In this document: piece after piece, positions 27,330 through 63,969 of the stretch | Position numbering within the stretch: the stretch's first letter is position 1 | How the letters are laid out: the number at the start of each line of letters is the position of its first letter | DNA from: Candidatus Saganbacteria bacterium | Lineage (GTDB): Bacteria; Margulisbacteria; WOR-1; XYC2-FULL-46-14; WPAF01 | DNA length: 64,000 nt | Direction: 5' to 3' | Assembly: GCA_009772965.1 (NCBI GenBank) | Contig: WPAF01000002.1 | Location: forward strand, 54,199 to 118,198 | Translations under genes and position numbers: made by a program | Notes under the pieces: model-generated | What the model was told of the DNA's origin: nothing | What the model saw: the letters and a program-made list of their open reading frames with translations, nothing else | The model's database searches: none

Positions 27330-27343
27330 AAAATCCCCCTTTT

Positions 27344-35802: not shown

Positions 35803-38712
<2,910 letters not shown>

Positions 38713-44063: not shown

Positions 44064-44101
44064 GGAGATATTATATCAAAAAGGGAGCAAGAATTCGCTG
44101 T

Positions 44102-44425: not shown

Positions 44426-44799
44426 TTTAATAACTCCTTTGTTTTTTGCAGATATTCAACTGCTAATTTTTTGTCCGCCAACTTAGACATTTTTTCTGTG
44501 TATTCAGCATAGCGGGTTTCAATGCAAAAGGGGGTTAAGATTGCTAAAAGATCTTTTTGTTTCTGATCTAATTTAGAATTAACTTTTGCTAGTTCGGATA
44601 GTCTTGTTAAGTTGTGTATTCGCGGAGGAAATTCTTTTGAAATAGTAGTAATGATTGCTTTTAATAACTTCTCAATTGCTTGCTGACACATAAAAGTTAC
44701 ATAAAGGTAACGGCAGCCGTCAAGCATAACCTTTGCGCTTTCAAGGTCGTAGGCAGCATGTTTAATCCAATATTGAGTGATTTTATCTGGTTTTCTCAT
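44404..44799 (-). CDS. HEPN-domain protein (HepT-like toxin partner)
   Basis: 131 aa helical protein immediately upstream of the MNT gene and overlapping it. Conserved R...(E/H) HEPN-like segment (..CIETRYAEYTE..). Confidence 0.6.
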   Translation of the reverse strand: MRKPDKITQYWIKHAAYDLESAKVMLDGCRYLYVTFMCQQAIEKLLKAIITTISKEFPPRIHNLTRLSELAKVNSKLDQKQKDLLAILTPFCIETRYAEYTEKMSKLADKKLAVEYLQKTKELLKCLKEMI

Positions 44800-44886
44800 C
44801 TATATTATTATATCATTCAAAATAATTTTAAAGAAGTAAAATATTTTCGTAAAAAAGAATAAATCCCTAAGGGTATATGTTCCGTA

Positions 44887-46731: not shown

Positions 46732-46734
46732 GTG

Positions 46735-48183: not shown

Positions 48184-48825
48184 TTAGATGGAGGAGGTTT
48201 CCAGAAGATAGCCTTTTACTCTTTTTTCAAAATCTTTTTTAATAACAGGGAGGGCAACTTTATTTCCTTTGGTAAATAATATCTCAGTGTAGTTTATATC
48301 GTCGAAACTGACTAAAGCTTTCAGATAAACGGCGGCATCAAAGCTTGTGTACTTCTTTTTGCAGTTTTCTATTATTTCTTTTAGGGAAGTTTTCTTGAAA
48401 ATATAATAGAGATCTACATAATCTTTAAATTCTGCCCGGAGCAAAGCGCAAATTTTCATGCAGGCAATGTCCATTGGATCTGCAATATTAAAAACCCCAA
48501 AATCCAGACATGGCCTTAAAAGGTTTTCTTTGATACAAAAAAAAGAAACTTTTATTTCATCAGCAACAACTAGATTTAATGTTTTATTACTAGCCTGTAT
48601 GACTTCTATTGAATAACCATTGAAAATTTCCCTAATTTCCCTTAAAAGATCTTCGGGGTTAAAAACCTTGTTTGTAAAAAAGTCAAAATCGATAGAATCC
48701 CGATGTCCTAATTGTAATGCCAACCCTGTTCCTGCTGCAAGATAGAAGCGGTCTTTGAAATCCTTGAACAAAGGAAGGATCTCTTTTCTTTTTTTATCCA
48801 AGATTTCAAGGTGTTTTTCTGTCAT
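48184..48825 (-). CDS. Third AbiEii-like nucleotidyltransferase (short)
   Basis: From the ATG at 48825: MTEKHLEILDKKRKEILPLFKDFKDRFYLAAGTGLALQLGHRDSIDFDFF matches the AbiEii/DUF1814 core. About 213 aa. Confidence 0.6.
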   Translation of the reverse strand: MTEKHLEILDKKRKEILPLFKDFKDRFYLAAGTGLALQLGHRDSIDFDFFTNKVFNPEDLLREIREIFNGYSIEVIQASNKTLNLVVADEIKVSFFCIKENLLRPCLDFGVFNIADPMDIACMKICALLRAEFKDYVDLYYIFKKTSLKEIIENCKKKYTSFDAAVYLKALVSFDDINYTEILFTKGNKVALPVIKKDFEKRVKGYLLETSSI

Positions 48826-49084
48826 GTTTAATACCAAAAAATATCCGCCAGAGGTTATTGCTGCGTTTATCAAGCTGCTTGCCGCCAAAAGACAAAACGT
48901 AGTTTTTTATTGAGGATTTATCCGAATTTTTAAAAAGCCAATGGATTGCAGGTATGCTGCCGTAGCTTAAAATCCGGCTAAAAATAAGCTTATAATTTTG
49001 GGAAAAAGAAAGTTTATCCAGATTTACATCCCAGAAATATTTTTTAAATTCTTTAGGAAGCTTTTTTTCTCTTTTTAATGACAT
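48806..49084 (-). CDS. Small basic protein, putative cognate partner of the NTase (unknown family)
   Basis: 92 aa ORF directly upstream of, and overlapping by 20 nt, the AbiEii-like gene. No recognisable motif. Confidence 0.3.
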   Translation of the reverse strand: MSLKREKKLPKEFKKYFWDVNLDKLSFSQNYKLIFSRILSYGSIPAIHWLFKNSDKSSIKNYVLSFGGKQLDKRSNNLWRIFFGIKHDRKTP

Positions 49085-50141: not shown

Positions 50142-53028
50142 CTATTGCCCTTGCTGATTTCCTTTTAAAACCAAGTATACCTGCCAAATGGAAAGATAAC
50201 GATAATAAGTCCTAGCCCTGTATCCATACATAGGCCCGTTGCCAATACCGGGTTCAACGGTATAAGCTTCAGGCCATAATCCCCAATTGTTAGCTTGATT
50301 AACTGCTAAATTGTAAGTTCCATATACAGTTTGCCAACCCTCTCTTTTTAAACCATAGGCAAGGAGACATGCGCCTAGTGCATAACTGCTGCCGAGCCAA
50401 ACTTCCCTTTCTTGTTCGCCATTGATTAATTTACCGTTTCTGGTGCCATTTACTGCACCGATAAATCCCCTTGCAAATCCTCTAACGCCGAAATTTGCAA
50501 CATTGTTTTTAAAGATTGTTTGCAAATGGCTTATTAGCATATTTCTTGGGAGAATCTCTCCTAATCCAGATATTTTTCCATATAAAAACGGCAGGACATC
50601 CGAAAAAACATCAGTCGAATTTTGTGAAAGATTAAAGTATCCTTTTTGATTCCAAAGAGCTTTTGTAAAATTAGATTTACCTTTTTCGTACCAACTCGAC
50701 AGTTCTGCTTCAGTTTTTTTATCCCCCATAAGCTTTGCCATTTCAATGCCGGCTTTTAGGGCATAGAGCCACATTGCGCTGGTATAAGTCATAGCCCCTT
50801 TTACATTCCAGTTGTCATAGGTTTGATCTGGAATACCAAGGTGAATTGGAAGGCCTAATCCCTTTGTGTCGAATCTTTTCGCATACCTTAATGCGGCAAT
50901 AACTCCTCCGTAAACTGACTGGATAAAGGATGTATTTTTTTTGCCTGATAAAACAAAATTTCTCCAGGCTTCAAGCGGAACGCACATTGATAATTCAGAC
51001 CAGACATTGGGGTTTTGGTGGTCATAAGAATTGTAGTCCAAAGCCGGATCGCTGTCTGGGGCGCCTATGTCATGTGGTGTCGCGTCTTTAATTTTTTTGG
51101 CATCAATATATACCTGTGCTAATAATTTGGCCTCATCTGTGGGCTTGCCTGACCTTATGAAATATTGATAAATCGCTTCCTTTTTTTGCTCGGTTGTTTT
51201 TAGTTTGTCAAAATTGGGAATTTTTTGGGCAAACTCGTTATAAGCAATCAAAGTCAAATCTCTTTTTCCGATTGCTCTTGAGTAATGAGCCATTAAATTG
51301 TTATGGAGCTTTGGCCAGAGCAAAGCTCTTGCCGCGGCGTAAATGCCGACATCCCTGGTTTCAGTATGCCGATAATCCATGCGGTTGCTTTCTCCCATAA
51401 TATGGAGGTTCCCCGCATTTGGGATATTTCCCCAATAAACCGCGCCGCTTTGTAAAAGAGATAATGAATTTATCAGCTCGCCCTTGAACCAATTTGGAAG
51501 TTTGTTATCGGTTAATATGGTTTTTTGCCAATTGCGGATTTGGGTTTGCCAGTTATCATAATTATCCAGTGCGTATTTTGCGATTGCAACCGCATTTTGG
51601 CCGGAGTTCCCAAAATATTTTGTGTATTGCTTATCGTATACAATTCTTTCTTTTTTACTTGCATCTTTGAAGCCAAAAGCGGTTTTTGGAAAATCATAAA
51701 CAAAAGCAATCGGGATATTTCTAACTTCACCCGCTTTTAAGCTGAATTTTATCGCAATCGCGCCAGCCAGCGAATCATTTGCATTTGCTTTGGCTGTATT
51801 ATTTGTATTGGAAAGTTCGCCGTTTCTATAAAATCCTGATACTTCCCGTCCATTGCCATTTGCGTTAAAGCGAGAAACGTAGGTTATTTTAATGCCCGGA
51901 ACTTTTTTTATGGCAATTGCTATTTGCCCTTTACTGCTGATGGTTTGCGGGTTCCCCGTCAAAAATCAGGTAAAAATAATTTTGGTCTTCGACGATGCGG
52001 TTAAAATTTCCTAAATTGTTTGGCAAGAATTGTGTTTGGAGCATTTTCGATCTTGCACTGCCGGCAGGCTGGCCGGATTCTGGAAAAATTGAATTTATGC
52101 CGGGCAGAGTAACTTCTCTATATGCTTTTGGGTCCCAGGTATTTTCATTAGTATTTGCCCAGCCGACTAAATTTTGAAATGAAAGCATCACGGAAGATTC
52201 TACATTTTCTTTTGAGGTGTTATTCATTTGAACATTAAACATAAGCACTGGCAGAGATGATTCTTTGTGATTGCCTGGAATGATGGGGCTGCTGCTGCGG
52301 ATTGTTAAACGAACCGGGAACTCGCGGTAAACATGCCAGCTTAACGGGTAAAGAGAATGGAAGGTTGTCTTTTCAGCGTTTACGCCCCATTTCCAGCCGC
52401 TTAATTTTCCTTCCGGAGCCATTGTGTTTAATGTGCGCGAAACAACTCCTCTGCTGTTTTTAAAATATACATGGAATTGGCTGGCGGCATTTCCTTTGGG
52501 ATCAAAAATGTTTCTGCCGGGATTAATAAAATCAACAGTTGGAAATCCTCCTGCTGGCCAAAAAGTTATTCCCCCTGTACCCAGTCCGCCCAAGGGTAGG
52601 GCATATGGAATGGCGTTTCCCTTTCCATCAGTGGGAGTGCCTGTCATACGCATATATGCGATTCTATTATCACCATAGTTGCCATAAGGGATTAACCTAA
52701 CAGATGTGTCATGGGCGGCTTTTGGAATCCCTGCAGGGAGTGAAAGGCCTGGATATCCAAGTTTTTGTAAAATATATATAACAATTCGTTTTAGGTATTG
52801 TTCTTTTTCCTGGCCAGGAGTAAAAGACCTGCTTATTGCTTCTGCAATCAATTGGTTAAACTTGTTTTCATTAATTATTTTTCCGCCGGTTGCCTTTGGA
52901 GATAAATATCCTTTCTCAATTAAATGCTGTTTGTAAAATTTATTAAGAAGAAACGAAATTTGCTGGTTTATAGGAAGATTTTGGAAGTGCCTTAAAGGAA
53001 GATTGAAAACAATATTATTTATTCCCAT
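50142..53028 (-). pseudogene. GH116-family (GBA2/glucosylceramidase-like) beta-glycosidase split into two overlapping frames
   Basis: Upstream ORF (53028..51931) contains ..IPYALPLGGLGTGGITFW.., the signature of the GH116 N-terminal beta-sandwich. Downstream ORF (51962..50142, TTG start) looks like a GH116/DUF608-type catalytic (alpha/alpha)6 domain. The frames overlap by 32 nt around an A/T homopolymer-rich stretch. Confidence 0.55.
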
Positions 53029-53107: not shown

Positions 53108-55291
53108 TTAAAAAGTTCCCTCAAACATTATACTATGGGATTGGCTGCTAGACCTGAATCTATCATCATAGTAATTGCCCTCATATTTGAGGGATAAATT
53201 TGGAAGTTTCCAAAATACTCCCCTAAGTCCCACCCCCCATTGCAAAGAGATAATATTTCCAAACCTGGAGTTGAAAAACGTGAATGCGGAAAACGGCTGG
53301 TTAAAAGCGGTAAATTGGTATTCTGCACCGAAGCCGAGTGAAATATAGTATCTCCAATAATTAATTTGTTCATAAGCGCCCCCGTCTTCAACCTTTTTTT
53401 CAGAATACCTCGGCCATAATCCATTGCCCGTAATCTCAAGAGGGTTATATTCAATCCCAAATCCAAGGTATGGGGAAATTTTTAATGTAGAATCATTGAT
53501 CCCAAAAGAATTTGCATATCTAAAAATAAATGGCTCAAAAGTCCAAGAAAAATTATCTTCTGGCCGGGATTCTGATGCATTTTTTAGGCTGTTTAATCTG
53601 TCTTCAGTTTTTACCTTTTTATTTGGGAATTCAGCAATATTCTGCTTGCTGGCTGTTACAAGAGGGCTTTCGCTGCCAACGGGTTTAAAAGCAAAACCCA
53701 TTGATCCCCCCGCTAAAATAAGGCCTTTTTCGCCGATAGGAAATTTATATTCACCAGCTGTTTTAACGCCAAGCACCAGGGAAGAAAATAATGAATTCTG
53801 CGGAGTTTGGGCTTGATATTTATTGCTTTCTTCGTCCCATGAATACCTATGTAATTTAATGCCAGCAAAAGTAAGCTGGGCAAACGGAGTAAACCTGAGA
53901 TTATAATGGTCCCTTTCTAATCCATATTCTGCACCAATTGATAAAGAATGGGTTTCACTAATATTAAGGCGGGGAATTTTAGCGCTGAGTGAGTCAGTTT
54001 GGAAATCAAAAGTCCTAGCGGGACTCATAGAATAATCAATATTAAGCTGTAAATTTTGGGAAAGCCTTGCCTTGCTGCTAATAGAAAAGGAAACCCCTTC
54101 TGTTAATGAAGAAGTTGCCTTCCCTGTTTGATATGAGTCTTTTACATAAGCTGTGCTAAAATTTATTTCAGCTAAAGTTCCAAAATCCTTATGTATAATT
54201 GCATACTGGGCGGCAATAAGCCTTTCTTCGATTTTACTGCGTTCCGCATCATAGGCGCTAATTGGAACTTTACTCAGTATACGCAGGGCTTTTTTGATTT
54301 CTCGTTTAGCTTCTTTGTATCTTCTAAGCTGGGCAAGGGCAGTGGCTCGCCCCGCATGCAGCTGTGCAAGTATTTTTCTGCTGTCATGGTCAAGATCATT
54401 ATGCCTAAAGAGGTTTATTCCGGCTGAGAAGTATCTTATAGCTTCCCGATAGTTTGATTTTCTAAGCCGTAAAATATCTCCCATTCCAAGAAAATATTGC
54501 ACAAAGTAACGGCGGAATGGCATTTTATCCCGCAGCATATCTGCGGTTCTTTTTGCCTGTTCATAATAATTGGTAGATTGCGGAATATTTCTCCTCCTGT
54601 AATTAAAAAGATCAGCGAGTGATAATAGGGCAGGAGTTATTATTTTTCTAAGCTTTAACCTGATATTTTTATTTGTTGGGTCTTCTAAGAAATCCTTGAA
54701 TACGGGATATTCGACGATTTTCCTATACTCAGCCAGGGCTGACCTGACTTTTCCGTTTTCAAGATAAAGCTTTCCAAAACCGTTTCTCAGCCGTAAATAT
54801 ATCTCAAGGAAAGTTTTATAAGCAGGGGTTATTAATTTATCCCCTTGGCTCTCAATATTTGCAATTGCCTTAATTAACTTTTGCTTTGCATCGCTTGACT
54901 TATCTTCACTTGGTTCTGGCTTGGTTCTTTTAAGTGCTTCTGAAATAACCATTAAAGCTTTATTGTAAATTGGTTCTGCTTCATCATATCTTGCCATTTT
55001 AAAACAATACACGTCGCCGATTGCAGAATGGATATTTGCCAAAAACTCAGATTCTTTGATTCCAAATCTTCTTATTTTTAAGGTTTTTAATGTTTTGTGG
55101 TATTCGTGAATGGCTTTATCGTATATTTTTGCCGCGATCAGGTTTCCAATAAAGCCAAAGCGAAACGCCCAGCGATTGGCGTTGATGGCAAAAAGAACTT
55201 CTTTGTTAAGCAGTTTTGGCTCGCCGTTTGCCCCTCGGCTTTTGGCAATGCTTCCCACCCAGGAGCGAGTAATATAAGAGCAGGGAGGCAA
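53108..55291 (-). CDS. TPR-repeat protein with C-terminal outer-membrane beta-barrel (BcsC/PgaA/PelB-like architecture)
   Basis: The N-terminal 380 aa form helical TPR-like repeats. The C-terminal 340 aa show an amphipathic beta-strand pattern with aromatic girdle residues and a terminal ...SIMFEGTF, typical of OMP barrels. The annotated start overlaps the upstream gene by 86 nt, so the true start may be internal. Confidence 0.55.
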   Translation of the reverse strand: MPPCSYITRSWVGSIAKSRGANGEPKLLNKEVLFAINANRWAFRFGFIGNLIAAKIYDKAIHEYHKTLKTLKIRRFGIKESEFLANIHSAIGDVYCFKMARYDEAEPIYNKALMVISEALKRTKPEPSEDKSSDAKQKLIKAIANIESQGDKLITPAYKTFLEIYLRLRNGFGKLYLENGKVRSALAEYRKIVEYPVFKDFLEDPTNKNIRLKLRKIITPALLSLADLFNYRRRNIPQSTNYYEQAKRTADMLRDKMPFRRYFVQYFLGMGDILRLRKSNYREAIRYFSAGINLFRHNDLDHDSRKILAQLHAGRATALAQLRRYKEAKREIKKALRILSKVPISAYDAERSKIEERLIAAQYAIIHKDFGTLAEINFSTAYVKDSYQTGKATSSLTEGVSFSISSKARLSQNLQLNIDYSMSPARTFDFQTDSLSAKIPRLNISETHSLSIGAEYGLERDHYNLRFTPFAQLTFAGIKLHRYSWDEESNKYQAQTPQNSLFSSLVLGVKTAGEYKFPIGEKGLILAGGSMGFAFKPVGSESPLVTASKQNIAEFPNKKVKTEDRLNSLKNASESRPEDNFSWTFEPFIFRYANSFGINDSTLKISPYLGFGIEYNPLEITGNGLWPRYSEKKVEDGGAYEQINYWRYYISLGFGAEYQFTAFNQPFSAFTFFNSRFGNIISLQWGVGLRGVFWKLPNLSLKYEGNYYDDRFRSSSQSHSIMFEGTF

Positions 55292-58200
55292 TAATTTCCG
55301 GCTGTTTTACGTCATCCGGAATATTTTCGATTTCGCTATTGATATTCCCCAAGCTGTTTAATGCCCAGGTGAGCGAACCAAATGCTCGAGTATTTATAGC
55401 TGCTAAGTTTAAAGTGTCAGGATTTCCCAACTTGATCAAATTTGTCATTATGGTATTTATTTGTTGCAAGATGGATTTGTATTGTGCCTGAGCTTTTGTT
55501 AATTCTCCATCTTCCTCAAATAATTGGCCAAGCATTACACTTGCCTCAATTCCTGCGATCTTAGCTTGGTGTTTTCCTATATCAATTAAATGTTTTATTT
55601 TGGTATTTGTATCTTTTGAGAAATCTAGAGAATTGAATAGTTCTATAACCTTAGAAAGTATAGCTTTTGTTTTTACACCGGCAGCTTTAATGACTTCGTA
55701 CGAATTGAGCTTGATCATATTTATGCTTGTTTCCGCGAGCAGAAGCAAATTATTGCTTGTTAATTGTGTGCTTTTGCTTCTTAGGGATTCTAGTAATTCA
55801 ACAGGATAGGCGGGTAATTTTGACTGATCAATTCCAGCAAAAATTATTCTATCTTGCCCTAAAACTGCCCTTAATATGTCTGAAGCAATTAGAAAGTTTT
55901 CCTTTCCTTTGCCTTCCTCAACCAATATATCTTGAATTCCGCCGCGCACTGCATAAATCATAGAGAGGATCTGAGCCCCGCGGAATGCCAGCCGGAATGA
56001 ACCTTTCTCCAATGCGCATTTTGTGTTGTTTATAATGCCATCCAATAAATCATTATTTTTCAGGAATGATTGAACTTTTCCTAATTCATTATTTCTTAAG
56101 AGAAGTTTTATTTTATATGCTGAGGTTTCAGCCAAGCCAAACATAGAAATTATCCCGCCGCGATCATTTTTTTCAGTTTTAAATTGGGTTTCTGCGGTTT
56201 TAAATGCGGTTTCAACCTGTTCTAGGTTTTCCAACTCGCGCTCAAACCTTATTTTCATGAGTTCTGCAATGCTGTATAAAAGGTTGCCTTTGGAGATGCA
56301 TAATTCGCTCAAGGCGTATTTTTGGCCGGCGTCAGGGCTATTTGCAAGCGCTCTAAATATATCAATTGCCTTGTCAAAACATCCATTTGCTTTTGTACGG
56401 TCAAGATTTTGAATATGCTGCCAGCCCGTGGTTCCATATATTTGTGCCTTAAGCATCAATAATTGCAGTTTTTGGGTTTTATTCAGCCTATTTGAAATCC
56501 CATTTGCCGCATTTTGAATATTGTTTAATTCATCAATAATAGTTTTTCCGGTTGAGGTAAAGGTGATTTTTGCAAGCGCGATTTTTGCCTCAAGGATTGA
56601 TATTTGAGCGTTATTATAATTTGTTTCATCAGAGCCGATCGTTTCAAAATCGGCAATTGCCTCACTATATCTCTCTAGATTTGCCAGCAACTCTGCCCGC
56701 CTTTGGGCAAGCGCTGAAGGAGTTAAATTTGTCTCAATTTGCATGATGAGTTTGCGATCTTCTCTTACGGGGCATTGAGATATCTTTTTATATAATTCCA
56801 ATGCGGCATTGAAATCGGCTTTTCCTTCGCCGGATTCTTCTTTTGCAATTGTTCCCCTAAACGAATGCGCCCAAGCAAGGGTTGAGAGAGATTGGTAATA
56901 GGCAAATAAGTTATGCTCTGTGCTGGTTGGCGAGCCGTTAATTCCGCAGATTGAAGTAGGAGAGCATGCATTTGGCTGTATATTCATTGTAGTATTGAAC
57001 CAGTCAACTGCCTTTTTTGCTAAAGCATATGCTTCATTTATTTTAATGAGTGTTTCTTCGGCATTTTTGGTAATTGGGTAAGATCTGCTTATCATTTGTA
57101 AAATAACATTAGCTTTTTTAGCTTGAATTCTTGCCAAAAATGACGGGCGCAATTGATATGTGCCATTTAATTTTGCTTTTGTAGAAATAATGTTGTCACA
57201 TTCATTGTTTGCTTCGGTAAAGCGCCTTGCCGTAGTTAGGGCATCAACTAAGCTCAATGAAAGCTCCATCTCGTTGGTCGCGTTTCTTTGGAGGATGTCT
57301 ATTCCTGAGATTCTAATTGGTTTTCCTTTACTTAGATTTTTATAATTATTCGAGATTTGCGACATGGCGCCGCTGAATTTATTCAGTATTGCCCAAAGAT
57401 CCGAAATAGAACCTTTAAGAGCGGTATCACTATTTAATTTGACTTCACCATGCAAAAGCCATGTGTATATTGCGGCCGCTTTTAAAGCTTCATTAGCGCC
57501 TGAGCCGGGCTCTGCTTTTTCTAGCAGGGATGCGCGCATATTGTACGCCCAGGCAAGGGTTGAGAAGAATGAATAAACTATGTCTGGCGCCATGTTGGGC
57601 GGCATATTTGACAACTGTTTTATGCATATGTCAATGGCACCCTTAATTGCGGTTTTGGCTAGGTCAGGATTTTTTAAGCTAAGTCGTTTCGCGATTTCAA
57701 TGAGTAAAAACGCGTGGATGCTGTAAGACCTGGTTTTATACATATACTTTGAAATAGTTACATCGTTATGGTCTTCAAGCCCGGTCCTTATGTTATTAAT
57801 AGTATTTGCTAAAGTGGATAGTTTTTGTTTAAGTGTGTTTTGATCAATTTTACCCGCGGCCATTTCATCGGTTATTATTTTGTCGGGGCGGAGCATTAAG
57901 AGCTTAATGTTTTCAATTTCCATCTTAAATTGCTGATAGAGTTCTTGATTTATTTCCGCGAGTAATTTCCCCCTTATAAGGCCATTAACATATTCTGGAG
58001 AAAATCTAATTTGTTGTCTTTTAATCCAATATGAAACACCAAAATGGTTAGACAAGTCGCCATTGATCAGCCCATTATATTTATTTAATGCGAGAGAAAA
58101 ATATTTTTCTGCTTCGTCATAGTTCCGTTGTTCGCGATAATGCCGGCCTTTGGTGGAATCAATAATAGTGCTATTGCTGGCATAGGCTATAATTTGAGAC

Positions 58201-58439
58201 AAGAACCAAGGAGAATTTGACATCGATCTTCTTACAATTGAATTTTTGGCGGTGTTTTCAAAAAGCGTGTTAGCAATTGATAGCTTGCAGTAATCCCCGT
58301 CTCTTGGAAGACTGGCGGATGCGTCAAGCAAAGCCTCGAGATTCTTCTTAAGGTCCAGGTCTGTGCGCTGTGCGTCAATGACGTTCGTACCGGGTTGGGC
58401 CAGTATATTACTATCTATTTTTGAAGTTCCCGGGGGCAT
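55206..58439 (-). CDS. Large (1077 aa) alpha-helical TPR-like repeat protein
   Basis: An uninterrupted ORF with pervasive helical-repeat composition (A/L/K/E-rich; W/Y-L-G/A-Y TPR-like periodicity). No catalytic motifs recognised. Confidence 0.55.
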   Translation of the reverse strand: MPPGTSKIDSNILAQPGTNVIDAQRTDLDLKKNLEALLDASASLPRDGDYCKLSIANTLFENTAKNSIVRRSMSNSPWFLSQIIAYASNSTIIDSTKGRHYREQRNYDEAEKYFSLALNKYNGLINGDLSNHFGVSYWIKRQQIRFSPEYVNGLIRGKLLAEINQELYQQFKMEIENIKLLMLRPDKIITDEMAAGKIDQNTLKQKLSTLANTINNIRTGLEDHNDVTISKYMYKTRSYSIHAFLLIEIAKRLSLKNPDLAKTAIKGAIDICIKQLSNMPPNMAPDIVYSFFSTLAWAYNMRASLLEKAEPGSGANEALKAAAIYTWLLHGEVKLNSDTALKGSISDLWAILNKFSGAMSQISNNYKNLSKGKPIRISGIDILQRNATNEMELSLSLVDALTTARRFTEANNECDNIISTKAKLNGTYQLRPSFLARIQAKKANVILQMISRSYPITKNAEETLIKINEAYALAKKAVDWFNTTMNIQPNACSPTSICGINGSPTSTEHNLFAYYQSLSTLAWAHSFRGTIAKEESGEGKADFNAALELYKKISQCPVREDRKLIMQIETNLTPSALAQRRAELLANLERYSEAIADFETIGSDETNYNNAQISILEAKIALAKITFTSTGKTIIDELNNIQNAANGISNRLNKTQKLQLLMLKAQIYGTTGWQHIQNLDRTKANGCFDKAIDIFRALANSPDAGQKYALSELCISKGNLLYSIAELMKIRFERELENLEQVETAFKTAETQFKTEKNDRGGIISMFGLAETSAYKIKLLLRNNELGKVQSFLKNNDLLDGIINNTKCALEKGSFRLAFRGAQILSMIYAVRGGIQDILVEEGKGKENFLIASDILRAVLGQDRIIFAGIDQSKLPAYPVELLESLRSKSTQLTSNNLLLLAETSINMIKLNSYEVIKAAGVKTKAILSKVIELFNSLDFSKDTNTKIKHLIDIGKHQAKIAGIEASVMLGQLFEEDGELTKAQAQYKSILQQINTIMTNLIKLGNPDTLNLAAINTRAFGSLTWALNSLGNINSEIENIPDDVKQPEIIASLLLYYSLLGGKHCQKPRGKRRAKTA

Positions 58440-58478: not shown

Positions 58479-61400
58479 TTAAAAATGCCTTAGAATTTCA
58501 TTGATTATCTGGGTATCATAGAGGGAGATGGCCTTTTTCTTCCCAAGAAAGTTCTGTATACTCAAAATAGCGTTTTTTTGGTGTTGATCAAGCTTGCTTG
58601 TTTTTTTGTCTAAAGAAAACAAGCCGAATAGGCTGACCAGATCCCTTAGCTTGTTGTCTGGAATAAAACCTCCAGCCGCGGTCCTAACTGTTTTGACAAG
58701 GTAAGAGAATGCTTTGCGGTCATTTTGCAGGGAGCTATAAAGCATGACCGAACCGGCTAAAGCTTCAAGATTGTGGCGGTCATATTTTAATGCTTCGCGG
58801 TAATATTTTAAGGCCTTTATTATTGTTCTGTAGGTTTCTGTCTGTTGTCCTTTTTCACCTTTTAAAATGATCTTTTCCCCTGGTTCAATCATAAGCGTCC
58901 ACCAGGTAAAATTTCCTAAGAAAGCCAGGAATTTCGCATTGTTTGTGTTGTCCTTATTAAAAAGTTCCTCTATTTGGGGCGCGTATTGGCCTATTTTTTT
59001 TGCCAGTCCTAAAAAGGAATTTATAACATCGTTTGAATCTGAGTATATAAAGGAGTCTTTGTTAATCTCCTTCCCAATTACTCCTATTTTAAATGCGTGT
59101 ATAGAAATATAATTGTCACTAATAGTTTTTATTTTTTGCCCAATTCTTCTTATGTCATTATCAATGTTTGTTGTCGGCTGGTTATTGCCTTTGGCTAATA
59201 TCAAATTGTTGTTGGCTAGCATCAATTGGCTCCTGGCTGTGGAGAGTCTGTTGGTGTCCAGGACCAGGTGCATTATCTCGGTCATTAATTGGGAGATGAT
59301 TTCGATATCTTTTTTGTATTTGCTTTTTATTTTTGGATTATCTGATAGCCTATAATATTCATGAAGCGAAGCGTGGGCGGCAAGACAAACGTCTGATAGC
59401 TCGTTTATTACCCGGATTATGTGCATCGCGGGAAGGGTGGGGTTGGTAAATTTGATTGAAGGGATGCTGTTTAATAACAGGATGGCGTCCTTGAATTCTG
59501 TAAGTTTGTGAGCTTGCGCCCCCGCGCTAACCAAAACAGAACTTAACTTGAGGAGCCATTTTGTTTGAGCGACGTTCCTGGGGTCTGATGATTTGAAATG
59601 GTTAACCAATAAGCCGGCGGCTTGCGAAAAAAGCGTTTTGTCCGGCAGATCAAATCTGGCGCTGGGTTGGGAAGTAAAATTGTGTTCTAAGCTCGCGGTA
59701 ACACCCGTTATAATATTATTGAACCTGTTAAAAGTTGACAAAATAGAACTTGATATTTCTTTTAAGGTTTTTATGGCTGCTTCGTAATCCTTGCTGAAGC
59801 CAGTTACTACTATTTCTTTTTTCTTGTTTGCGGCTTCTTCTGTATAATCCCCTGTAAATTCATTATTATTCGCAAGATTGTTAATGCTTTGAATGTGTTC
59901 ATCTTTTTGTTTTTTTAATACATCAAGCTTAAACAGGAGGGTTCCCATCCAGCTATCGATTATCTCGGAAATGGATTGGTAGTTTTTGGTGGTGTTCACC
60001 TCTTCCACCAGCGCTTGTTTAAAAGCATATTCAGCAATAGAGCAGGCAGCAATAATCTTCTGGTATTCATTAACCAAATTTGCTTGTCTTTGCTCATATG
60101 ATTCTCCGCTGTTATGTATATCTTTTTGATTTAACCAGTAAAGATGAAACGGGTCGGAAAATTTCCTTCTCTGAAAATCATCATTTAAGTCAAAAATTCT
60201 TCTTTGCAGAATACGGGCAATTTTATATAAAATATGTGCTTTTGCTTGAGTAGGGAATTGGGATTTATAAATCTCAAAGACTTTTAGCAAATCTTTGATG
60301 GGAGGGTTGGAGGGAAGGTTTTTGATTAATCCTTTCTCTCTTAACTTTTCAATTACCGGATGGTTTTGCTCAAGGATAACTGCCGCGAGATTAAAAGCGT
60401 CTGAATAGTTGTATTGCTTTCGCGGGAATTCAATGGTTTTATTGTTTGGGAGCATAGTGAAATGATTTACAGAATAACCGCTGGCGGCAGTGTCAATAAT
60501 TTCACTTATGACCTGGACGATAAAAGCCTGCTGAGGAATAGGTGTGTTCCCATGTTCTCCGGAAAATCCAATGTTATATACATGCTCCATCAATTTATTG
60601 GGCCAGGAAGATAAGCTGTTCTTGCTGTTTTCTAATTCAACAAGCAGGAGGTTTTCCTGGCTTTGGGCCAGAGTAAAACGCCGGCTCCGGTTCAATTCTT
60701 GTATGTAAGCAAGGCGCAGGATCATTTTTATGCGCGTGCATTTGTGATCCAATTCAAGAAACCATTTGAACCGGTCTTCAATTTCAGTTGATAAGACATT
60801 TAGGGTTTCTAAAATATTTTTTAGGCGGTTTATGGCAAGGGTAAAGATAAATTGATCCGCGGGTCCTTTAAGGCTCTGGGTAAAAAGAATGAGGTTCCGG
60901 TAAGCCTCAGATGCTTCATCATAACGCCCAACACCCAGGCAAGATTCCGCAAAGTTAAACTGGGCAAGAATGGTTTTGTCATTAATTGCAGCCTTTTTAT
61001 AATAGTGGTATCTTCTTTCCGCCTCTATCGCCATAACTGGTTTTTCTTCTATATCGCTCTTAAAAACATGCCGAGCGATTAAAATTCCGGGGAACAATAT
61101 GTCATCTCTTGCCATTTTGGCAAAATAGTCAACGTCTTCCATGCCCAATAAAATATGATTAAACGGTTCATCTGAAAGGGGTTGGGGAGTACGATTAATT
61201 ATTTTACCACGCGCAACTATTGACGGGCTTATCTTCTTATTAAAAGCGAGCTCAAGCATTGAAGCGGCGCGCAAAAAAAGCATAGTATTGTAATATTGCG
61301 GCCCTTTTTTGCCTTTTGAATCAATATAATCGTAAACGCTCTTAGTTGATATATATTTGTTAAGTTCATTAATGAATTGAGTATAAGCTTCGGCTTTTTC

Positions 61401-63188
61401 TTCTTGGCTTGTGGTATTGAAAGAGCTCACTGCCGCGTGCGCCGCAAGATAACTTATTCGGGAGATTATGTTGCTGTAATTGCCCGCTTTAACGTCCTTT
61501 GGTTTTTTCTTGTCAATATATGAAGTGAGTAAAGCATACGCCTTGTGGGTGGTTTTAAACTTTTTAGCAACGCCATCCATAGCTTCATCGTTGTAATTTA
61601 ATAAATAGACCGCCAGTTCAATTAAAATCCTTATGGCGTCATATCCTTCTGTTGCGCCCAGATTTGCTGCCTTAACATTTGTTCTGATGGTTAACCTGCC
61701 GGTTTCCGGGTCAATTCCCAGCTCAACCTGGTCGGGGAAAAAGTTAGTTAACGAGTAAGCACCTATTTTTTTCATTATCAGATCATATATGTTTTTGTTA
61801 ATATCAAAAGAGCCGTCCTGGTTTTCAATGAAGGAGCGGTCCTGAATAAGTGAAAAATAGTAGCCATTATTGGTTAATTTTGGTTTTATAGCTTTGGATT
61901 TTTTATTGGCTTTGGTTCGGCTTAATCTAGTAAGGGCTAACAGCTCTTTGTCTGTCACAGGAATTTTGCGCATTAAACTTTCAAATATTTTATATTGGGG
62001 ACCGTCAAGCCGAACATATTTCCCGTCCCCGCTTGTTATTTTGCTGTCTTCAATTTGACGATATAAGTTGTGGGCAAAGTTATAAGAAGCTTTGATGATA
62101 TCAAAACTATCGGAAACCAGCTGATACCAGAAATCCTTGTCTTTGTTGTCATACGCGGCAATTTTCATAATGACATTCAGGCAGTTATATGAAGGGTTGA
62201 CGGTGTAATTGTGGTTGAATCCAGGGCCGCCCCAGGAGGGGAGATCTCCCACGCGGATAAACATTCTAACAATTTCATTGGACTTATTTTTGATCACTTC
62301 AACATCATATGTTTTTAGCCCTTCTATCATAAAATCGAGGAGGGAGCTGATAGTAAAATTGGGCCTACTGCCAAAGCTTCGCATTCGCAGCCCTGTCAAC
62401 TTATCCTTAATAGGATCCGGAAAGTTAAAGGCGGCCGAAGCACTGAATATCTTTAGATTTTGCAATTGTTTAATTGTCATGAGCGCGTCTATAAAAATTA
62501 GATCTGCGTCAGAAGCGGAGGTCTCTTCATCTTTGCTTTGAAAATATACCCCTTTTTGCTCCTGGCTATAATAACAGCGCCACCCCATATTCCCGTATTT
62601 GTTTAACATGGTGAGCGCCCCGCGGATCAAGCCAAAAGCGACAGTCTCATATTTCTTTATTAGTTCAGTTTTAGCATCTTCTTTCATATTCTTTGAATGG
62701 TGAATTAGTAAAGCGGCGTTTGCCACCGCCTGGAGGCCGTAGGCTATACCTTCTGAAACAATTTGTCCTCCCTGGGTGGGGGATTCAACATAATAAATTG
62801 GCTCATTGTCGCTTCCGGCTATCCTCAAAAAATAACCGCTGTAATTAATTTTGCTGTTGTTTATAACGACTTTACCTTCATCATTTATTTCAAAGTTTTT
62901 AAGCAGGCTCTGGTTGAGGCCTTGAGTTAAATGGGCCATTAGCTTTCCTTGATTGAGCGCGGATCTTCCTGTGTCTTTATTAATATCCATATTTTCTGTA
63001 TTTGGATCCCCAGCATCTATGGATTTACTGGTTATACTGCTTTGTTGGACTGGGGGATTAATAATTGACAGGACATAATTAATTCCCAGTCCGCCCGCGG
63101 CTACTCCGCCCGCGACCAGAATTGGTTTTATTACTTTCGTAAGTGTTATTCTGCCAACTGAAAGGCCCAAGCCTCTAAAAAACCCCAT
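58479..63188 (-). CDS. Giant (1569 aa) membrane-anchored protein: N-terminal GH8-like glycoside hydrolase domain fused to about 1100 aa of helical repeats
   Basis: N-terminal TM helix (ILVAGGVAAGGLGINYVLSII). GH8 signature blocks appear in the correct order and spacing: IVSEGIAYGL (SEGQxYGM, catalytic Glu), SASDADLIFIDAL (ASDADxxIAxAL) and TVNPSYN (NPSY). The rest is helical TPR-like. Confidence 0.6.
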   Translation of the reverse strand: MGFFRGLGLSVGRITLTKVIKPILVAGGVAAGGLGINYVLSIINPPVQQSSITSKSIDAGDPNTENMDINKDTGRSALNQGKLMAHLTQGLNQSLLKNFEINDEGKVVINNSKINYSGYFLRIAGSDNEPIYYVESPTQGGQIVSEGIAYGLQAVANAALLIHHSKNMKEDAKTELIKKYETVAFGLIRGALTMLNKYGNMGWRCYYSQEQKGVYFQSKDEETSASDADLIFIDALMTIKQLQNLKIFSASAAFNFPDPIKDKLTGLRMRSFGSRPNFTISSLLDFMIEGLKTYDVEVIKNKSNEIVRMFIRVGDLPSWGGPGFNHNYTVNPSYNCLNVIMKIAAYDNKDKDFWYQLVSDSFDIIKASYNFAHNLYRQIEDSKITSGDGKYVRLDGPQYKIFESLMRKIPVTDKELLALTRLSRTKANKKSKAIKPKLTNNGYYFSLIQDRSFIENQDGSFDINKNIYDLIMKKIGAYSLTNFFPDQVELGIDPETGRLTIRTNVKAANLGATEGYDAIRILIELAVYLLNYNDEAMDGVAKKFKTTHKAYALLTSYIDKKKPKDVKAGNYSNIISRISYLAAHAAVSSFNTTSQEEKAEAYTQFINELNKYISTKSVYDYIDSKGKKGPQYYNTMLFLRAASMLELAFNKKISPSIVARGKIINRTPQPLSDEPFNHILLGMEDVDYFAKMARDDILFPGILIARHVFKSDIEEKPVMAIEAERRYHYYKKAAINDKTILAQFNFAESCLGVGRYDEASEAYRNLILFTQSLKGPADQFIFTLAINRLKNILETLNVLSTEIEDRFKWFLELDHKCTRIKMILRLAYIQELNRSRRFTLAQSQENLLLVELENSKNSLSSWPNKLMEHVYNIGFSGEHGNTPIPQQAFIVQVISEIIDTAASGYSVNHFTMLPNNKTIEFPRKQYNYSDAFNLAAVILEQNHPVIEKLREKGLIKNLPSNPPIKDLLKVFEIYKSQFPTQAKAHILYKIARILQRRIFDLNDDFQRRKFSDPFHLYWLNQKDIHNSGESYEQRQANLVNEYQKIIAACSIAEYAFKQALVEEVNTTKNYQSISEIIDSWMGTLLFKLDVLKKQKDEHIQSINNLANNNEFTGDYTEEAANKKKEIVVTGFSKDYEAAIKTLKEISSSILSTFNRFNNIITGVTASLEHNFTSQPSARFDLPDKTLFSQAAGLLVNHFKSSDPRNVAQTKWLLKLSSVLVSAGAQAHKLTEFKDAILLLNSIPSIKFTNPTLPAMHIIRVINELSDVCLAAHASLHEYYRLSDNPKIKSKYKKDIEIISQLMTEIMHLVLDTNRLSTARSQLMLANNNLILAKGNNQPTTNIDNDIRRIGQKIKTISDNYISIHAFKIGVIGKEINKDSFIYSDSNDVINSFLGLAKKIGQYAPQIEELFNKDNTNNAKFLAFLGNFTWWTLMIEPGEKIILKGEKGQQTETYRTIIKALKYYREALKYDRHNLEALAGSVMLYSSLQNDRKAFSYLVKTVRTAAGGFIPDNKLRDLVSLFGLFSLDKKTSKLDQHQKNAILSIQNFLGKKKAISLYDTQIINEILRHF

Positions 63189-63189
63189 A

Positions 63190-63969
63190 TTATTTCACGC
63201 TCCCGTATGCCCAAATGTGGTTTTTCTCTTCCCATTGTTTCGCGTCTTCTATTGGGCTCACCCCTTGATTTAAACCATACCCCCTAATGGTGTAGTATGA
63301 TGCCAGGCCGATCCAAAAGATCATGGAAGCGATCCCCAGCTCATAAAAGTCAACATACTTGGCCCCAGAAAAAACATGCCGGCCCAACCTATAAATTGCT
63401 AAGAAGTTAAGAACAGTTAACAATTTGCTCCTGCCCATATATTCTTCACTAAAGAGTTTTTTTCCAAAGCTTTTTACCTTCATCGGCTGTTCTAACGGGT
63501 CGGTTACATTGAATCCGGCTTTTTCATTGTGCCAAAACCTTCTCATCACATAATTGTAGTTAAAATGAAGCATAACCTTTTCATACCCCATGTTTGAGGT
63601 AACTCCAGTCCAGGAAGATCCCGCGGATATCCTGGAATATCTTAATACCCCTTCAATCATCAGATAGTTGACAAAACCGGTTTCAATTATCCAGTTGAGC
63701 GGTTCTTTAAATGTGGTCCCAAAGGCGTTGGGATTGGGCATCATTATGGAAGGGTGCCCAAAAAAGATAAAACCCAGCGAAGCATAAGCATTGGCCAAAC
63801 CGGGCATCCCAAACATGTTGTATAGCGGCCCCTGTATAAGGTCAAACGCGGTTTTTGCCGGCATGACTTTGCGGTATTTCCAGCAGTATTTTACGGCCAT
63901 TCTAATAAGCGCGGCGTTCATTGCCATCCAGCGAAGTTTTTGGAACATATCAGCGTTAAATTCAAGCAT
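63190..63969 (-). CDS. Hypothetical 259-aa protein at the head of the cluster (aromatic-rich)
   Basis: ORF with an ATG at 63969. W/Y/F/G/N-rich and possibly beta-rich. Its stop is 1 nt from the start of the giant gene, consistent with translational coupling. The region upstream lies outside the window. Confidence 0.4.
   Translation of the reverse strand: MLEFNADMFQKLRWMAMNAALIRMAVKYCWKYRKVMPAKTAFDLIQGPLYNMFGMPGLANAYASLGFIFFGHPSIMMPNPNAFGTTFKEPLNWIIETGFVNYLMIEGVLRYSRISAGSSWTGVTSNMGYEKVMLHFNYNYVMRRFWHNEKAGFNVTDPLEQPMKVKSFGKKLFSEEYMGRSKLLTVLNFLAIYRLGRHVFSGAKYVDFYELGIASMIFWIGLASYYTIRGYGLNQGVSPIEDAKQWEEKNHIWAYGSVK

What the first reader, a model, noticed from the sequence alone, without database searches (positions are those of the whole stretch)
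58479..63188. 1569-aa protein: signal-anchor + GH8 catalytic-motif set + about 1100-aa helical repeat tail
GH8 enzymes (BcsZ, chitosanases, xylanases) are normally 350-450 aa single-domain proteins. Here the three GH8 signature blocks (SEG..YG, ASDAD..I.AL, NPSY) occur within the first 400 aa after a single TM helix. An uninterrupted 3.3-kb helical-repeat extension follows. Such a fusion would tether a glycan-cleaving activity to a very large scaffold at the membrane. I am not aware of a characterised example.
Basis: partly seen in the sequence, partly recalled or inferred. Interest (0 to 1): 0.7.

Follow-up and report, generated by a model that had tools for sequence, protein, structure and literature searches.

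The report
Giant GH8 glycanase fused to scaffold
This 1569-residue protein of an uncultured Saganbacteria (Margulisbacteria) genome is a real, apparently active family-8 sugar-chain-cutting enzyme fused to an ~850-residue helical scaffold, and it always sits between two other giant uncharacterised envelope genes, which suggests an undescribed polysaccharide-handling machine.

Summary
The ORF (58479-63188, minus strand, 1569 aa) and the three motifs are real. The protein is a GH8 enzyme.

- **Profile evidence:** the window protein misses Pfam PF01270, but 14 of 19 relatives hit it (best E 2e-20). A family profile hits CelA (E 4.6e-11) and E. coli BcsZ (hhalign 91.8%).
- **Catalytic residues:** E146, D227, Y334 and D517 correspond to CelA E95, D152, Y215 and BcsZ E55, D116, D243. 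D227, Y334 and D517 are invariant and E146 nearly so.

The barrel runs to about aa 650, with a roughly 100-aa insert. The tail is about 850 aa and only partly TPR-like.

The fusion is not a chimera. Three assemblies carry it, and all 18 full-length representatives (named ones nearly all Margulisbacteria) keep it.

Five loci share the cassette: giant membrane protein, GH8 fusion, giant TPR protein. A UDP-sugar pyrophosphorylase-like gene lies upstream in three of them. Several homologues carry Tat signals.

My best reading (inferred) is a periplasmic BcsZ-like processing hydrolase fused to its docking scaffold. The synthase is unidentified and the substrate is unknown. New variant of a known kind; interest about 0.55.

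The parts
58479..63188 (-). Whole ORF, 1569 aa (stop codon 58479-58481). Identical to NCBI 'hypothetical protein FD145_281', Candidatus Saganbacteria.
63060..63125 (-). N-terminal hydrophobic segment, aa 22-43, preceded by R5, R13, K18 and K21. Predicted signal anchor or export signal. It has no twin-arginine motif, unlike several homologues.
61239..62951 (-). GH8 (alpha/alpha)6 catalytic domain, about aa 80-650.
62751..62753 (-). E146 in VSEG, the predicted proton donor. Aligns with CelA E95 and BcsZ E55.
62508..62510 (-). D227 in SASDAD. Aligns with CelA D152 and BcsZ D116. Invariant in the family.
62187..62189 (-). Y334 in NPSY. Aligns with CelA Y215. Invariant in the family.
61638..61640 (-). 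D517 in GYDAIRI, the predicted catalytic base. Aligns with E. coli BcsZ D243. D517 and R520 are invariant in the family.
   Evidence: (domain 2 against 4q2b)
61749..62045 (-). Family-specific insert of roughly 100 aa (about aa 382-480) between barrel helices. A small alpha/beta subdomain, partly low confidence. Absent from the 346-aa stand-alone relative P0020.
61038..61238 (-). Low-confidence linker, aa 651-717.
58482..61037 (-). Helical tail, aa 718-1569. An alpha-solenoid with TPR-like ends, long helical hairpins in the middle and one beta-hairpin (aa 905-926). Conserved motifs include (S/A)DPRN at aa 1200-1205 and GN(F/L)xWW at 1425-1430.
   Evidence: Model pLDDT 71.5, pTM 0.70. Foldseek hits to TPR scaffolds SKI3, TTC7B, Naa15 and Ctr9 with low TM scores. 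Sub-threshold TPR_19 hit. Conservation.
63190..63969 (-). C-terminal 259 aa of the upstream giant polytopic membrane protein (2616 aa in the longer assembly L001). Its stop codon is 1 nt from the target's ATG. Conserved neighbour in 5 loci. Function unknown.
53108..58439 (-). Downstream giant TPR protein with a beta-rich C-terminal domain of about 400 aa ending in Phe. It is a single 1807-aa ORF in assembly L001. The window splits it into 55206-58439 and 53108-55291 because 92 bp are missing. Conserved neighbour in 5 loci.

Best explanation
The gene encodes a catalytically competent inverting GH8 beta-glycanase. Its (alpha/alpha)6 barrel spans about aa 80-650 and contains a lineage-specific insert. 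It is exported or anchored by its N-terminal segment so that the enzyme faces the periplasm.

The enzyme is covalently fused to an alpha-solenoid of about 850 aa that is partly TPR-like and acts as a protein-docking scaffold.

The gene is the middle member of a conserved, translationally coupled Margulisbacteria cassette:
- a UDP-sugar pyrophosphorylase-like gene;
- a polytopic membrane protein of 2300-2600 aa;
- the GH8-scaffold fusion;
- a TPR protein of 1400-1900 aa with a beta-rich C-terminal domain.

The most likely role is that of BcsZ in cellulose secretion, or PelA docked on PelB. That is a periplasmic hydrolase that trims, releases or quality-controls a beta-linked glycan made and moved by the neighbouring giant proteins. 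Here the hydrolase is permanently tethered to the scaffold instead of docking on it.

What is shown and what is inferred:
- **Shown:** GH8 fold, conserved catalytic residues, conserved fusion, conserved synteny.
- **Inferred:** periplasmic location, scaffold function, a biosynthesis or export role, and a beta-1,4-glucan-like substrate. A GlcN/GlcNAc-containing substrate is possible.
For: **GH8 identity**
- 14 of 19 family N-domains hit PF01270, best E 2e-20. P0020 scores 74 bits over profile positions 42-335 of 341.
- The family profile hits CelA 1cem at E 4.6e-11, plus 17 further PDB sequences deposited as glucanase, endoglucanase, chitosanase, cellulase or GH8 domain protein.
- hhalign against E. 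coli BcsZ gives 91.8%, E 7e-7.
- The Foldseek top 9 are all GH8.

**Active site**
- D227, Y334, D517 and R520 are invariant and E146 is nearly invariant across 20 sequences.
- They map to CelA E95, D152, Y215 and to BcsZ E55, D116, D243.
- The roles of the Glu and of the BcsZ-type Asp come from PMC13363691, which describes Glu95 as the proton donor and lists the E95Q, E55Q and D242A mutant structures, and from established GH8 literature.

**Export**
- The hydrophobic segment at aa 22-43 follows basic residues.
- Four homologues pass the TIGR01409 Tat-signal cut-off, and two more carry RR motifs.

**Fusion is real**
- Identical ORFs occur in three assemblies.
- All 18 full-length representatives are 1315-1909 aa.

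**Tail as scaffold**
- It is all-helical, and its nearest structures are TPR docking scaffolds.

**Cassette**
- Five loci share the giant gene, the GH8 fusion and the TPR giant. The neighbours are homologous between loci.
- A UDPGP-family gene lies upstream in L006 (UGP3-like), L008 (E 5e-20) and, weakly, L001.
- The upstream stop codon and the target's ATG are 1 nt apart.

**Precedent**
- TPR modules have been proposed as docking platforms for BcsZ, and PelA activity is enhanced by binding PelB's TPR region (PMC8892547).
Against: - No recognisable synthase was found. The giant upstream protein has no Pfam, NCBIfam or PDB-sequence hit.
- Its only link to a GT2 synthase is a weak hhalign match to BcsA (E 0.003, probability 9.9%). 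One of 60 local shuffles equalled that score. PgaC did not reproduce it.
- The TPR giant and its separate beta-rich homologue lack N-terminal signal peptides.
- The beta-rich domain is not detectably related to the BcsC barrel or to any PDB sequence.
- About half of the GH8-fusion homologues show no N-terminal hydrophobic segment.
- The window protein lacks the RR motif.
- Catabolic beta-glycoside genes (GH116, SBP, GH42, GH94) lie just downstream in this genome.
- The tail's similarity to TPR proteins is generic (TM 0.1-0.2) and its Pfam TPR hits are below threshold.
Confidence: 0.5

Rival explanations
1. A catabolic, cell-envelope-tethered endoglycanase. The GH8 domain degrades environmental beta-glucan, xylan or chitosan. 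The oligosaccharides are taken up through the nearby solute-binding protein and its transporter, then processed by GH94 phosphorylase and GH116 beta-glucosidase. The helical tail and the giant neighbours form a cell-surface, cellulosome-like holding complex.
For: - The best structural match is the cellulosomal cellulase CelA.
- GH116, SBP_bac_1, GH42 and GH94 genes lie within 20 kb downstream on the same strand.
- SBP_bac_1 also follows the cassette in L006.
- A CBM11/TIG protein follows it in L008.
Against: - The downstream sugar genes are not conserved across the five loci. The giant membrane protein and the TPR giant always are.
- A UDP-sugar pyrophosphorylase-like gene, an anabolic function, recurs upstream.
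- The 1569-aa protein has no carbohydrate-binding module.
- The protein appears periplasmic and anchored rather than secreted.
- The other top structural hits are BcsZ-type enzymes of cellulose synthesis operons.
Confidence: 0.22
2. A component of a non-glycan envelope machine, such as a giant-protein adhesion, attachment or cell-cell contact apparatus. In this reading the GH8 domain locally clears or remodels a host or own surface glycan, and the helical tail is a structural strut.
For: - All three core proteins are giant, lineage-specific and mostly lack known domains.
- No glycosyltransferase domain was found in the cassette.
- From my own knowledge, some Margulisbacteria live attached to other cells.
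Against: - Nothing adhesin-like (Ig, cadherin or beta-helix repeats) was detected in the three core proteins.
- The UDP-sugar pyrophosphorylase-like gene association points to sugar-nucleotide use.
- The catalytic residues are strictly conserved, as expected for a dedicated enzyme and substrate pair.
Confidence: 0.15
3. The GH8 domain is a catalytically dead glycan-binding module, and the protein is purely a scaffold.
For: - The window protein is too divergent to hit Pfam GH8.
- It does not match the PROSITE-style signature.
- It carries an insert near the cleft.
Against: The proton donor, the stabilising Asp, the Tyr and the base Asp are all invariant or nearly so across about 20 sequences that share only 17-35% identity.
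Confidence: 0.05
4. An artefact: an assembly chimera or a read-through of two genes.
For: The neighbouring gene in this same window does carry a 92-bp assembly difference.
Against: - The ORF is 100% identical in the NCBI, ENA and Logan assemblies.
- The architecture is kept in 18 divergent homologues from different samples.
- GC content shows no break along the gene.
Confidence: 0.01

Closest known systems
BcsZ (E. coli b3531; PDB 3QXQ/3QXF; also P. putida 4Q2B, V. fischeri 5CD2, CMCax 1WZZ). The periplasmic GH8 endoglucanase of bacterial cellulose secretion systems.
   Same: - Aligned catalytic residues E55, D116 and D243.
- Predicted periplasmic location.
- Encoded next to a large TPR protein in an operon.
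   Different: - 1569 aa against 368 aa, with only about 12-17% identity in the structural alignments.
- An insert of roughly 100 aa in the barrel.
- Covalently fused to a helical tail of about 850 aa.
- No recognisable BcsA or BcsB in the operon.
- Restricted to Margulisbacteria.
CelA catalytic core of Acetivibrio (Clostridium) thermocellus (PDB 1CEM/1KWF), GH8 endo-beta-1,4-glucanase.
   Same: - E95, D152 and Y215 are conserved.
   Different: - CelA is a secreted cellulosomal enzyme of about 480 aa with a dockerin, used for catabolism.
- It has no membrane segment, no TPR tail and no giant-gene context.
BcsC and BcsK, the TPR-rich periplasmic scaffolds of cellulose secretion. Analogues are PelB, PgaA and AlgK.
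   Same: - A long TPR-like alpha-solenoid encoded in the same operon as a polysaccharide hydrolase.
- Proposed as a docking platform for BcsZ (PMC8892547).
   Different: - No detectable sequence homology.
- Here the solenoid is fused to the hydrolase itself.
- The neighbouring TPR giant's C-terminal domain does not align with the BcsC barrel.
PelA-PelB interaction in Pseudomonas aeruginosa (hydrolase docked on a TPR scaffold).
   Same: The same logic of a glycoside hydrolase held on a TPR scaffold in the periplasm. Binding enhances PelA activity (cited in PMC8892547).
   Different: - The association is non-covalent.
- PelA is not GH8.
- The polymer and the synthase are different.

Membership tests
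Glycoside hydrolase family 8 (CAZy GH8; Pfam PF01270) | (alpha/alpha)6 barrel fold closest to solved GH8 structures | tested here: met
   [not shown]
Glycoside hydrolase family 8 (CAZy GH8; Pfam PF01270) | Significant match to the family profile (PF01270 gathering score 24 bits) | tested here: inconclusive
   The window protein has no hit at E<=0.1. 14 of 19 family members hit at E<=1, best E 2e-20. The 19-sequence family profile hits CelA at E 4.6e-11. Membership therefore rests on transitive and profile evidence.
Glycoside hydrolase family 8 (CAZy GH8; Pfam PF01270) | Proton-donor Glu in the (S/T)EG block (CelA E95, BcsZ E55) | tested here: met
   E146 aligns with both and is nearly invariant in the family.
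Glycoside hydrolase family 8 (CAZy GH8; Pfam PF01270) | Asp of the A(S/T)D(A/G)D block (CelA D152, BcsZ D116) and Tyr of NPSY (CelA Y215) | tested here: met
   D227 and Y334 align and are invariant.
Glycoside hydrolase family 8 (CAZy GH8; Pfam PF01270) | Catalytic-base Asp (BcsZ D243 in YDAIR) | tested here: met
   D517 lies in GYDAIRI. hhalign of the C-terminal half against BcsZ gives E 2.5e-4 but only 42.8% probability. D243 was verified to be the D of YDAIR. D517 and R520 are invariant.
Glycoside hydrolase family 8 (CAZy GH8; Pfam PF01270) | PROSITE-style GH8 signature A-[ST]-D-[AG]-D-x(2)-[IM]-A-x-[SA]-[LIVM]-[LIVMG]-x-A-x(3)-[FW] (pattern recalled from memory) | tested here: not met
   No exact match. 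ASDADLIFIDALMT deviates after the ASDAD core.
Glycoside hydrolase family 8 (CAZy GH8; Pfam PF01270) | Inverting hydrolysis of a beta-1,4-linked glycan | not testable with these tools
   This needs an enzyme assay.
Bcs (bacterial cellulose synthase) secretion system | BcsA-type GT2 synthase (D, DxD, TED, QxxRW; usually PilZ) in the operon | tested here: inconclusive
   No GT2 or PilZ Pfam hit in any cassette gene. The giant protein's C-terminus aligns weakly with BcsA, matching SED to TED, QKLRW to QRIRW and FNVT to FNVT (hhalign E 0.003, probability 9.9%). One of 60 local shuffles equalled the score. PgaC gave nothing.
Bcs (bacterial cellulose synthase) secretion system | BcsC-type outer-membrane porin (TPR plus a 16-stranded barrel) | tested here: not met
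   hhalign of the beta-rich C-terminal domain against the BcsC C-terminus gives probability 0.4%. There are only weak Autotransporter and OMP_b-brl hits (E 0.002-0.006). No signal peptide.
TPR repeat proteins (Pfam clan TPR) | 34-residue helix-turn-helix repeats detected above the family thresholds | tested here: not met
   The best hits are TPR_19 at 19.1 bits against a cut-off of 25, and TPR_2 at 17.2 against 27. The fold search gives only generic alpha-solenoid/TPR scaffold similarity at TM 0.1-0.2. 'TPR-like' describes the shape and does not claim family membership.
Tat-exported proteins | Twin-arginine signal (TIGR01409) | tested here: not met
   The window protein has no hit and no RR motif. 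Homologues P0003, P0004, P0005 and P0018 pass the cut-off. Export of the window protein would have to use the Sec or signal-anchor route (inferred).

The most novel reading that the evidence does not exclude
The conserved cassette encodes a previously unrecognised, Margulisbacteria-specific glycan synthesis and export machine that spans the cell envelope. It would be built from three giant proteins:
- a polytopic membrane protein of 2300-2600 aa;
- the GH8-scaffold fusion;
- a TPR protein of 1400-1900 aa with a beta-rich domain.

Its synthase would be the giant membrane protein. That protein has no recognisable glycosyltransferase domain. At most it is an extremely divergent relative of the TED, QxxRW and FxVTxK region of cellulose synthase. 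The hydrolase would be hard-wired to the periplasmic scaffold.
Probability: 0.3. Interest if true: 0.8.

Novelty: new variant of a known kind. Interest (0 to 1): 0.55.

Why it matters
Synthase-dependent exopolysaccharide systems (cellulose, Pel, PNAG, alginate) all pair a periplasmic glycan-cleaving enzyme with a TPR scaffold. How the two cooperate is still debated (PMC8892547). A natural covalent fusion of a BcsZ-like GH8 to a large solenoid is evidence of the 'Rosetta-stone' kind that the hydrolase works on the scaffold.

It also flags a three-giant-gene cassette in Margulisbacteria, an uncultured sister lineage of Cyanobacteria, whose other two members have no known domains. If the giant membrane protein proves to be the synthase, it would be a very divergent or new class of polysaccharide synthase.

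More practically, the family extends GH8 sequence space. The window protein escapes Pfam GH8 and is annotated 'hypothetical'.

Tried and rejected
- **Pfam and NCBIfam on the window protein.** No GH8 hit, only a 17-bit BcsZ fragment. This is not evidence of absence, because the homologues hit.
- **PDB sequence search with the single protein and with a 2-sequence profile.** Nothing relevant.
- **Word-indexed homologue search.** It found only one relative. The exhaustive HMMER search was needed.
- **Word-indexed searches with the giant protein.** The C-terminal half found one partial homologue. The A7 profile found nothing.
- **PDB sequence searches on the neighbours.** None for the giant protein, for the TPR giant or for its beta-rich domain profile.
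- **Pfam on five giant-protein C-termini at E<=10.** Nothing relevant.
- **GT2 hypothesis for the giant protein.**
  - hhalign against BcsA scored 34.6 (E 0.003).
  - Full shuffles gave 18.2±2.8 (maximum 26.8). Local shuffles gave 18.8±3.7 (maximum 34.4).
  - hhalign against PgaC scored 14.8, below its shuffles.
  - I keep this only as a lead.
- **BcsC-barrel homology of the neighbour's C-terminus.** Rejected.
- **afdb50 fold library.** Unavailable.
- **Literature searches** for a GH8-TPR fusion and for Margulisbacteria glycoside hydrolases. No characterised example.
- **Chimera hypothesis.** Rejected.
Full report
**1. Observation**

The window contains one uninterrupted ORF at 58479..63188 on the minus strand, 1569 aa with an ATG start. 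GC content is even along it. The sequence is identical to an NCBI entry, 'hypothetical protein FD145_281 [Candidatus Saganbacteria bacterium]'.

The N-terminus has one hydrophobic stretch, aa 22-43, preceded by Arg and Lys residues. Its Kyte-Doolittle 19-mer maximum is 1.66, and no other stretch comes close. An exact PROSITE-style GH8 pattern, recalled from memory, does not match.

**2. Is it GH8?**

Direct scans of the window protein are nearly silent. Pfam gives no GH8 hit at E<=0.1. NCBIfam gives a 17-bit fragment of the BcsZ model. PDB sequence searches with the single protein and with a two-sequence profile gave nothing relevant.

An exhaustive HMMER search of 1.84 billion representative proteins, using a two-sequence profile of aa 60-670, found only 20 representatives. 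Once these relatives are used, the evidence becomes strong:
- 14 of 19 N-domains hit PF01270, best E 2e-20.
- The short relative P0020 (346 aa) covers positions 42-335 of the 341-position GH8 profile at 74 bits.
- The 19-sequence family profile hits the CelA catalytic core (1CEM) at E 4.6e-11, and 17 further PDB sequences deposited as glucanase, endoglucanase, chitosanase, cellulase or GH8 domain protein.
- hhalign against E. coli BcsZ gives 91.8% probability, E 7e-7.
- An AlphaFold2 model of aa 50-690 built on this alignment is confident (pLDDT 81.7, pTM 0.87).
- Foldseek against the PDB returns GH8 enzymes as the top nine hits.

**3. Catalytic residues**

I counted chain positions in the HMMER alignment to 1CEM, whose chain index plus 32 gives the residue number. 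The 1KWF E95Q chain shows Q at the same position.
- E146 corresponds to CelA E95.
- D227 corresponds to CelA D152.
- Y334 corresponds to CelA Y215.

Against E. coli BcsZ, E146 corresponds to E55 and D227 to D116.

The C-terminal half aligns FFPDQVE...GYDAIRI with BcsZ FSPDWV...SYDAIRVY (hhalign E 2.5e-4, probability 42.8%). I verified that BcsZ D243 is the D of YDAIR, so D517 corresponds to D243.

PMC13363691 names Glu95 as the CelA proton donor. It also lists the E95Q, E55Q and D242A mutant structures.

In the 20-sequence family alignment D227, Y334, D517 and R520 are invariant. V144, S145, E146 and Y150 are at least 90% conserved, although pairwise identity to the window protein is only 17-35%.

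**4. Corrected anatomy**

| Region | Residues | Description |
|---|---|---|
| Export or anchor segment | 22-43 | single hydrophobic stretch |
| GH8 barrel | about 80-650 | (alpha/alpha)6 catalytic domain |
| Insert within the barrel | about 382-480 | small alpha/beta subdomain, partly low confidence, absent from P0020 |
| Linker | 651-717 | pLDDT <50 in both models |
| Helical tail | 718-1569 | alpha-solenoid scaffold |

The tail model is moderately confident (aa 671-1569; pLDDT 71.5, pTM 0.70). It is all-helical apart from one beta-hairpin at aa 905-926, with very long helical hairpins in the middle.

Foldseek finds TPR and alpha-solenoid docking scaffolds (SKI3, TTC7B, Naa15, Ctr9, IFT-A). 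The TM scores are only 0.1-0.2, which is generic similarity. The Pfam TPR hits are below threshold.

Conserved tail motifs include (S/A)DPRN (aa 1200-1205) and GN(F/L)xWW (aa 1425-1430). Their function is unknown.

**5. Not a chimera, and a small lineage-specific family**

The same ORF is present in the NCBI MAG, an ENA assembly (L001) and a Logan assembly (L002). The window and L001 are 100% identical across the gene.

Of the 20 representatives, 18 are 1315-1909 aa and align along the whole length. The two exceptions are:
- the 722-aa one, which sits on a 2.9-kb contig and is therefore probably truncated;
- the 346-aa one (P0020), a stand-alone GH8 on a 3.6-kb contig.

All named members are Margulisiibacteriota or Saganbacteria, except one labelled Bathyarchaeota. 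NCBI already names two of them 'glycosyl hydrolase family 8'.

**6. Export**

The window protein has a hydrophobic segment but no twin-arginine motif. Homologues P0003, P0004, P0005 and P0018 pass the TIGR01409 Tat-signal cut-off. P0014 and P0016 carry RR-x-F motifs. This argues that the family works outside the cytoplasm. However, roughly half the members show no N-terminal hydrophobic segment as called. Location is therefore inferred and has not been shown.

**7. Genomic context**

The gene neighbourhood could be read in five independent loci: L001 (this genome), L006/L007, L008, L009 and L010. In all five the order is the same:
- a giant protein without Pfam domains, 2284-2616 aa (split into 1352 + 1019 aa in L009);
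- the GH8 fusion;
- a giant TPR protein, 1425-1936 aa.

A sixth locus, the P0002 locus (L003-L005), lies on short contigs. There the GH8 fusion is flanked by long ORFs cut by the contig ends. The upstream one (P0021) is homologous to the giant protein.

The giants are homologous between loci, with 40% identity over 1249 aa. The TPR proteins share 25% identity over 1746 aa.

In the window the upstream stop codon and the target ATG are separated by 1 nt. A strong Shine-Dalgarno sequence precedes the downstream gene.

A UDPGP-family gene (UDP-sugar pyrophosphorylase) lies upstream in three loci: L006 (UGP3-like, 3e-18), L008 (5e-20) and, weakly, L001.

The giant upstream protein has clusters of transmembrane segments near both ends.

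The TPR giant ends in a beta-rich domain of about 400 aa:
- It has weak Autotransporter and OMP_b-brl hits (E 0.002-0.006).
- It ends in a C-terminal Phe in three of four fused versions.
- It is a separate 403-aa ORF in L010, ending in Trp.
- None of these proteins has a signal peptide.
- The domain does not align with the BcsC barrel or with any PDB sequence.

**8. Is the giant neighbour a synthase?**

hhalign of six giant C-termini against E. coli BcsA aligns 154 columns (E 0.003, probability 9.9%). Three motifs match:
- the invariant SED matches TED (residue 455);
- QKLRW matches QRIRW (residue 493);
- GFNVTDP matches KFNVTAK, the FxVTxK gating-loop motif (PMC8892547).

The real score of 34.6 exceeds all 60 full shuffles (18.2±2.8, maximum 26.8). 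One of 60 local shuffles equalled it (maximum 34.4).

PgaC, another processive GT2, does not align (14.8, below its shuffles). Pfam is silent. I treat this as an unconfirmed lead.

**9. Mechanism**

The best-supported model is a membrane-tethered or exported GH8 beta-glycanase that is permanently attached to a solenoid scaffold. It would act on a glycan handled by the neighbouring giant proteins.

The analogies are BcsZ with the TPR modules of BcsC or BcsK, and PelA docked on PelB. In the Pel system, docking on the TPR region enhances hydrolase activity (PMC8892547).

The substrate is most likely a beta-1,4-glucan, because the closest structures are CelA and BcsZ-type endoglucanases and a UDP-glucose-pyrophosphorylase-like gene is present. 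However, GH8 also contains chitosanases and xylanases. GlmS follows the cassette in two loci. An amino-sugar polymer is therefore not excluded.

The main rival is a catabolic role. GH116, a solute-binding protein, GH42 and GH94 lie downstream in this genome. These genes are not conserved across loci, whereas the giant neighbours are.

**10. Novelty and verdict**

GH8 enzymes and TPR scaffolds are both well known. The novelty lies in three points:
- their covalent fusion;
- the insert-bearing, highly divergent GH8 subfamily, confined to Margulisbacteria;
- the conserved three-giant-gene cassette.

I found none of these described in the searched literature.

I classify the finding as a new variant of a known kind.
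- Interest: about 0.55.
- Probability of the more novel reading (a new kind of glycan synthesis and export machine with an unrecognised synthase): about 0.3.

Noticed in passing
window 55206-55291 (junction near 55251); L001:17939-18030: The window lacks 92 bp that the ENA assembly of the same genome has. This splits the 1807-aa TPR gene into two overlapping ORFs, 55206-58439 and 53108-55291. Homologues elsewhere are single ORFs of 1737-1936 aa. The window version is therefore probably an assembly error or a frameshift variant.
   Followed up: partly
window 50142-53028 (-): A GH116 beta-glucosidase gene is split into two overlapping ORFs. 51931-53028 carries N-domain profile positions 1-156. 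50142-51962 carries positions 186-312 plus the catalytic domain. The split is identical in both assemblies, so it is a probable frameshift or pseudogene.
   Followed up: no
window 63190-63969 (-); L001:2149-9999: The giant upstream protein (2616 aa) has no known domain and has TM clusters at both ends. Its C-terminal part carries invariant SED, QK(L/I)RW and (F/W)NVT motifs. Their order and spacing match TED, QxxRW and FxVTxK of cellulose synthase BcsA, but the statistical support is weak and PgaC does not reproduce the match.
   Followed up: partly
window 53108-54400 (-); L001:18914-20173; L010:16898-18109: The beta-rich C-terminal domain (about 400 aa) of the TPR giant ends in Phe or Trp like an outer-membrane protein. 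Neither the fused nor the stand-alone version has an N-terminal signal peptide. It matches no known barrel family. How it would reach an outer membrane is unexplained.
   Followed up: partly
window 39875-48114 (-): A sugar-utilisation-like gene run lies downstream of the cassette: GH94 phosphorylase (39875-42241), GH42 beta-galactosidase (42222-44063), GlmS (44887-46731) and an SBP_bac_1 solute-binding protein (46735-48114). SBP_bac_1 and GlmS also follow the cassette in locus L006.
   Followed up: partly
window 48184-48888 (-); L001:24197-24710: An AbiEii-type nucleotidyltransferase toxin gene, with a small DUF6922 gene next to it (probable type IV toxin-antitoxin pair), is inserted between the cassette and the sugar genes.
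   Followed up: no
window 23826-29275 (-): V/A-type ATPase genes are present: the catalytic A subunit at 23826-25550 and the I subunit at 27344-29275. A large glutamate synthase lies at 4188-8603 (+) and CTP synthase at 37075-38712 (+).
   Followed up: no
protein P0013 (family member, 1382 aa): One family member is deposited as 'Candidatus Bathyarchaeota archaeon' on a 19-kb contig, while all other named members are Margulisbacteria. This points to mis-binning or a horizontal transfer.
   Followed up: no
window 59574-59591 (aa 1200-1205) and 58899-58916 (aa 1425-1430): The helical tail carries near-invariant motifs, (S/A)DPRN and GN(F/L)xWW, across very divergent homologues. This suggests a specific binding or interaction site of unknown function.
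   Followed up: no
L008:22291-24428: In one related locus a CBM11/TIG-domain protein follows the cassette. From my own knowledge, CBM11 modules bind beta-1,4 and mixed-linkage glucans. This is a hint about the polymer type.
   Followed up: no
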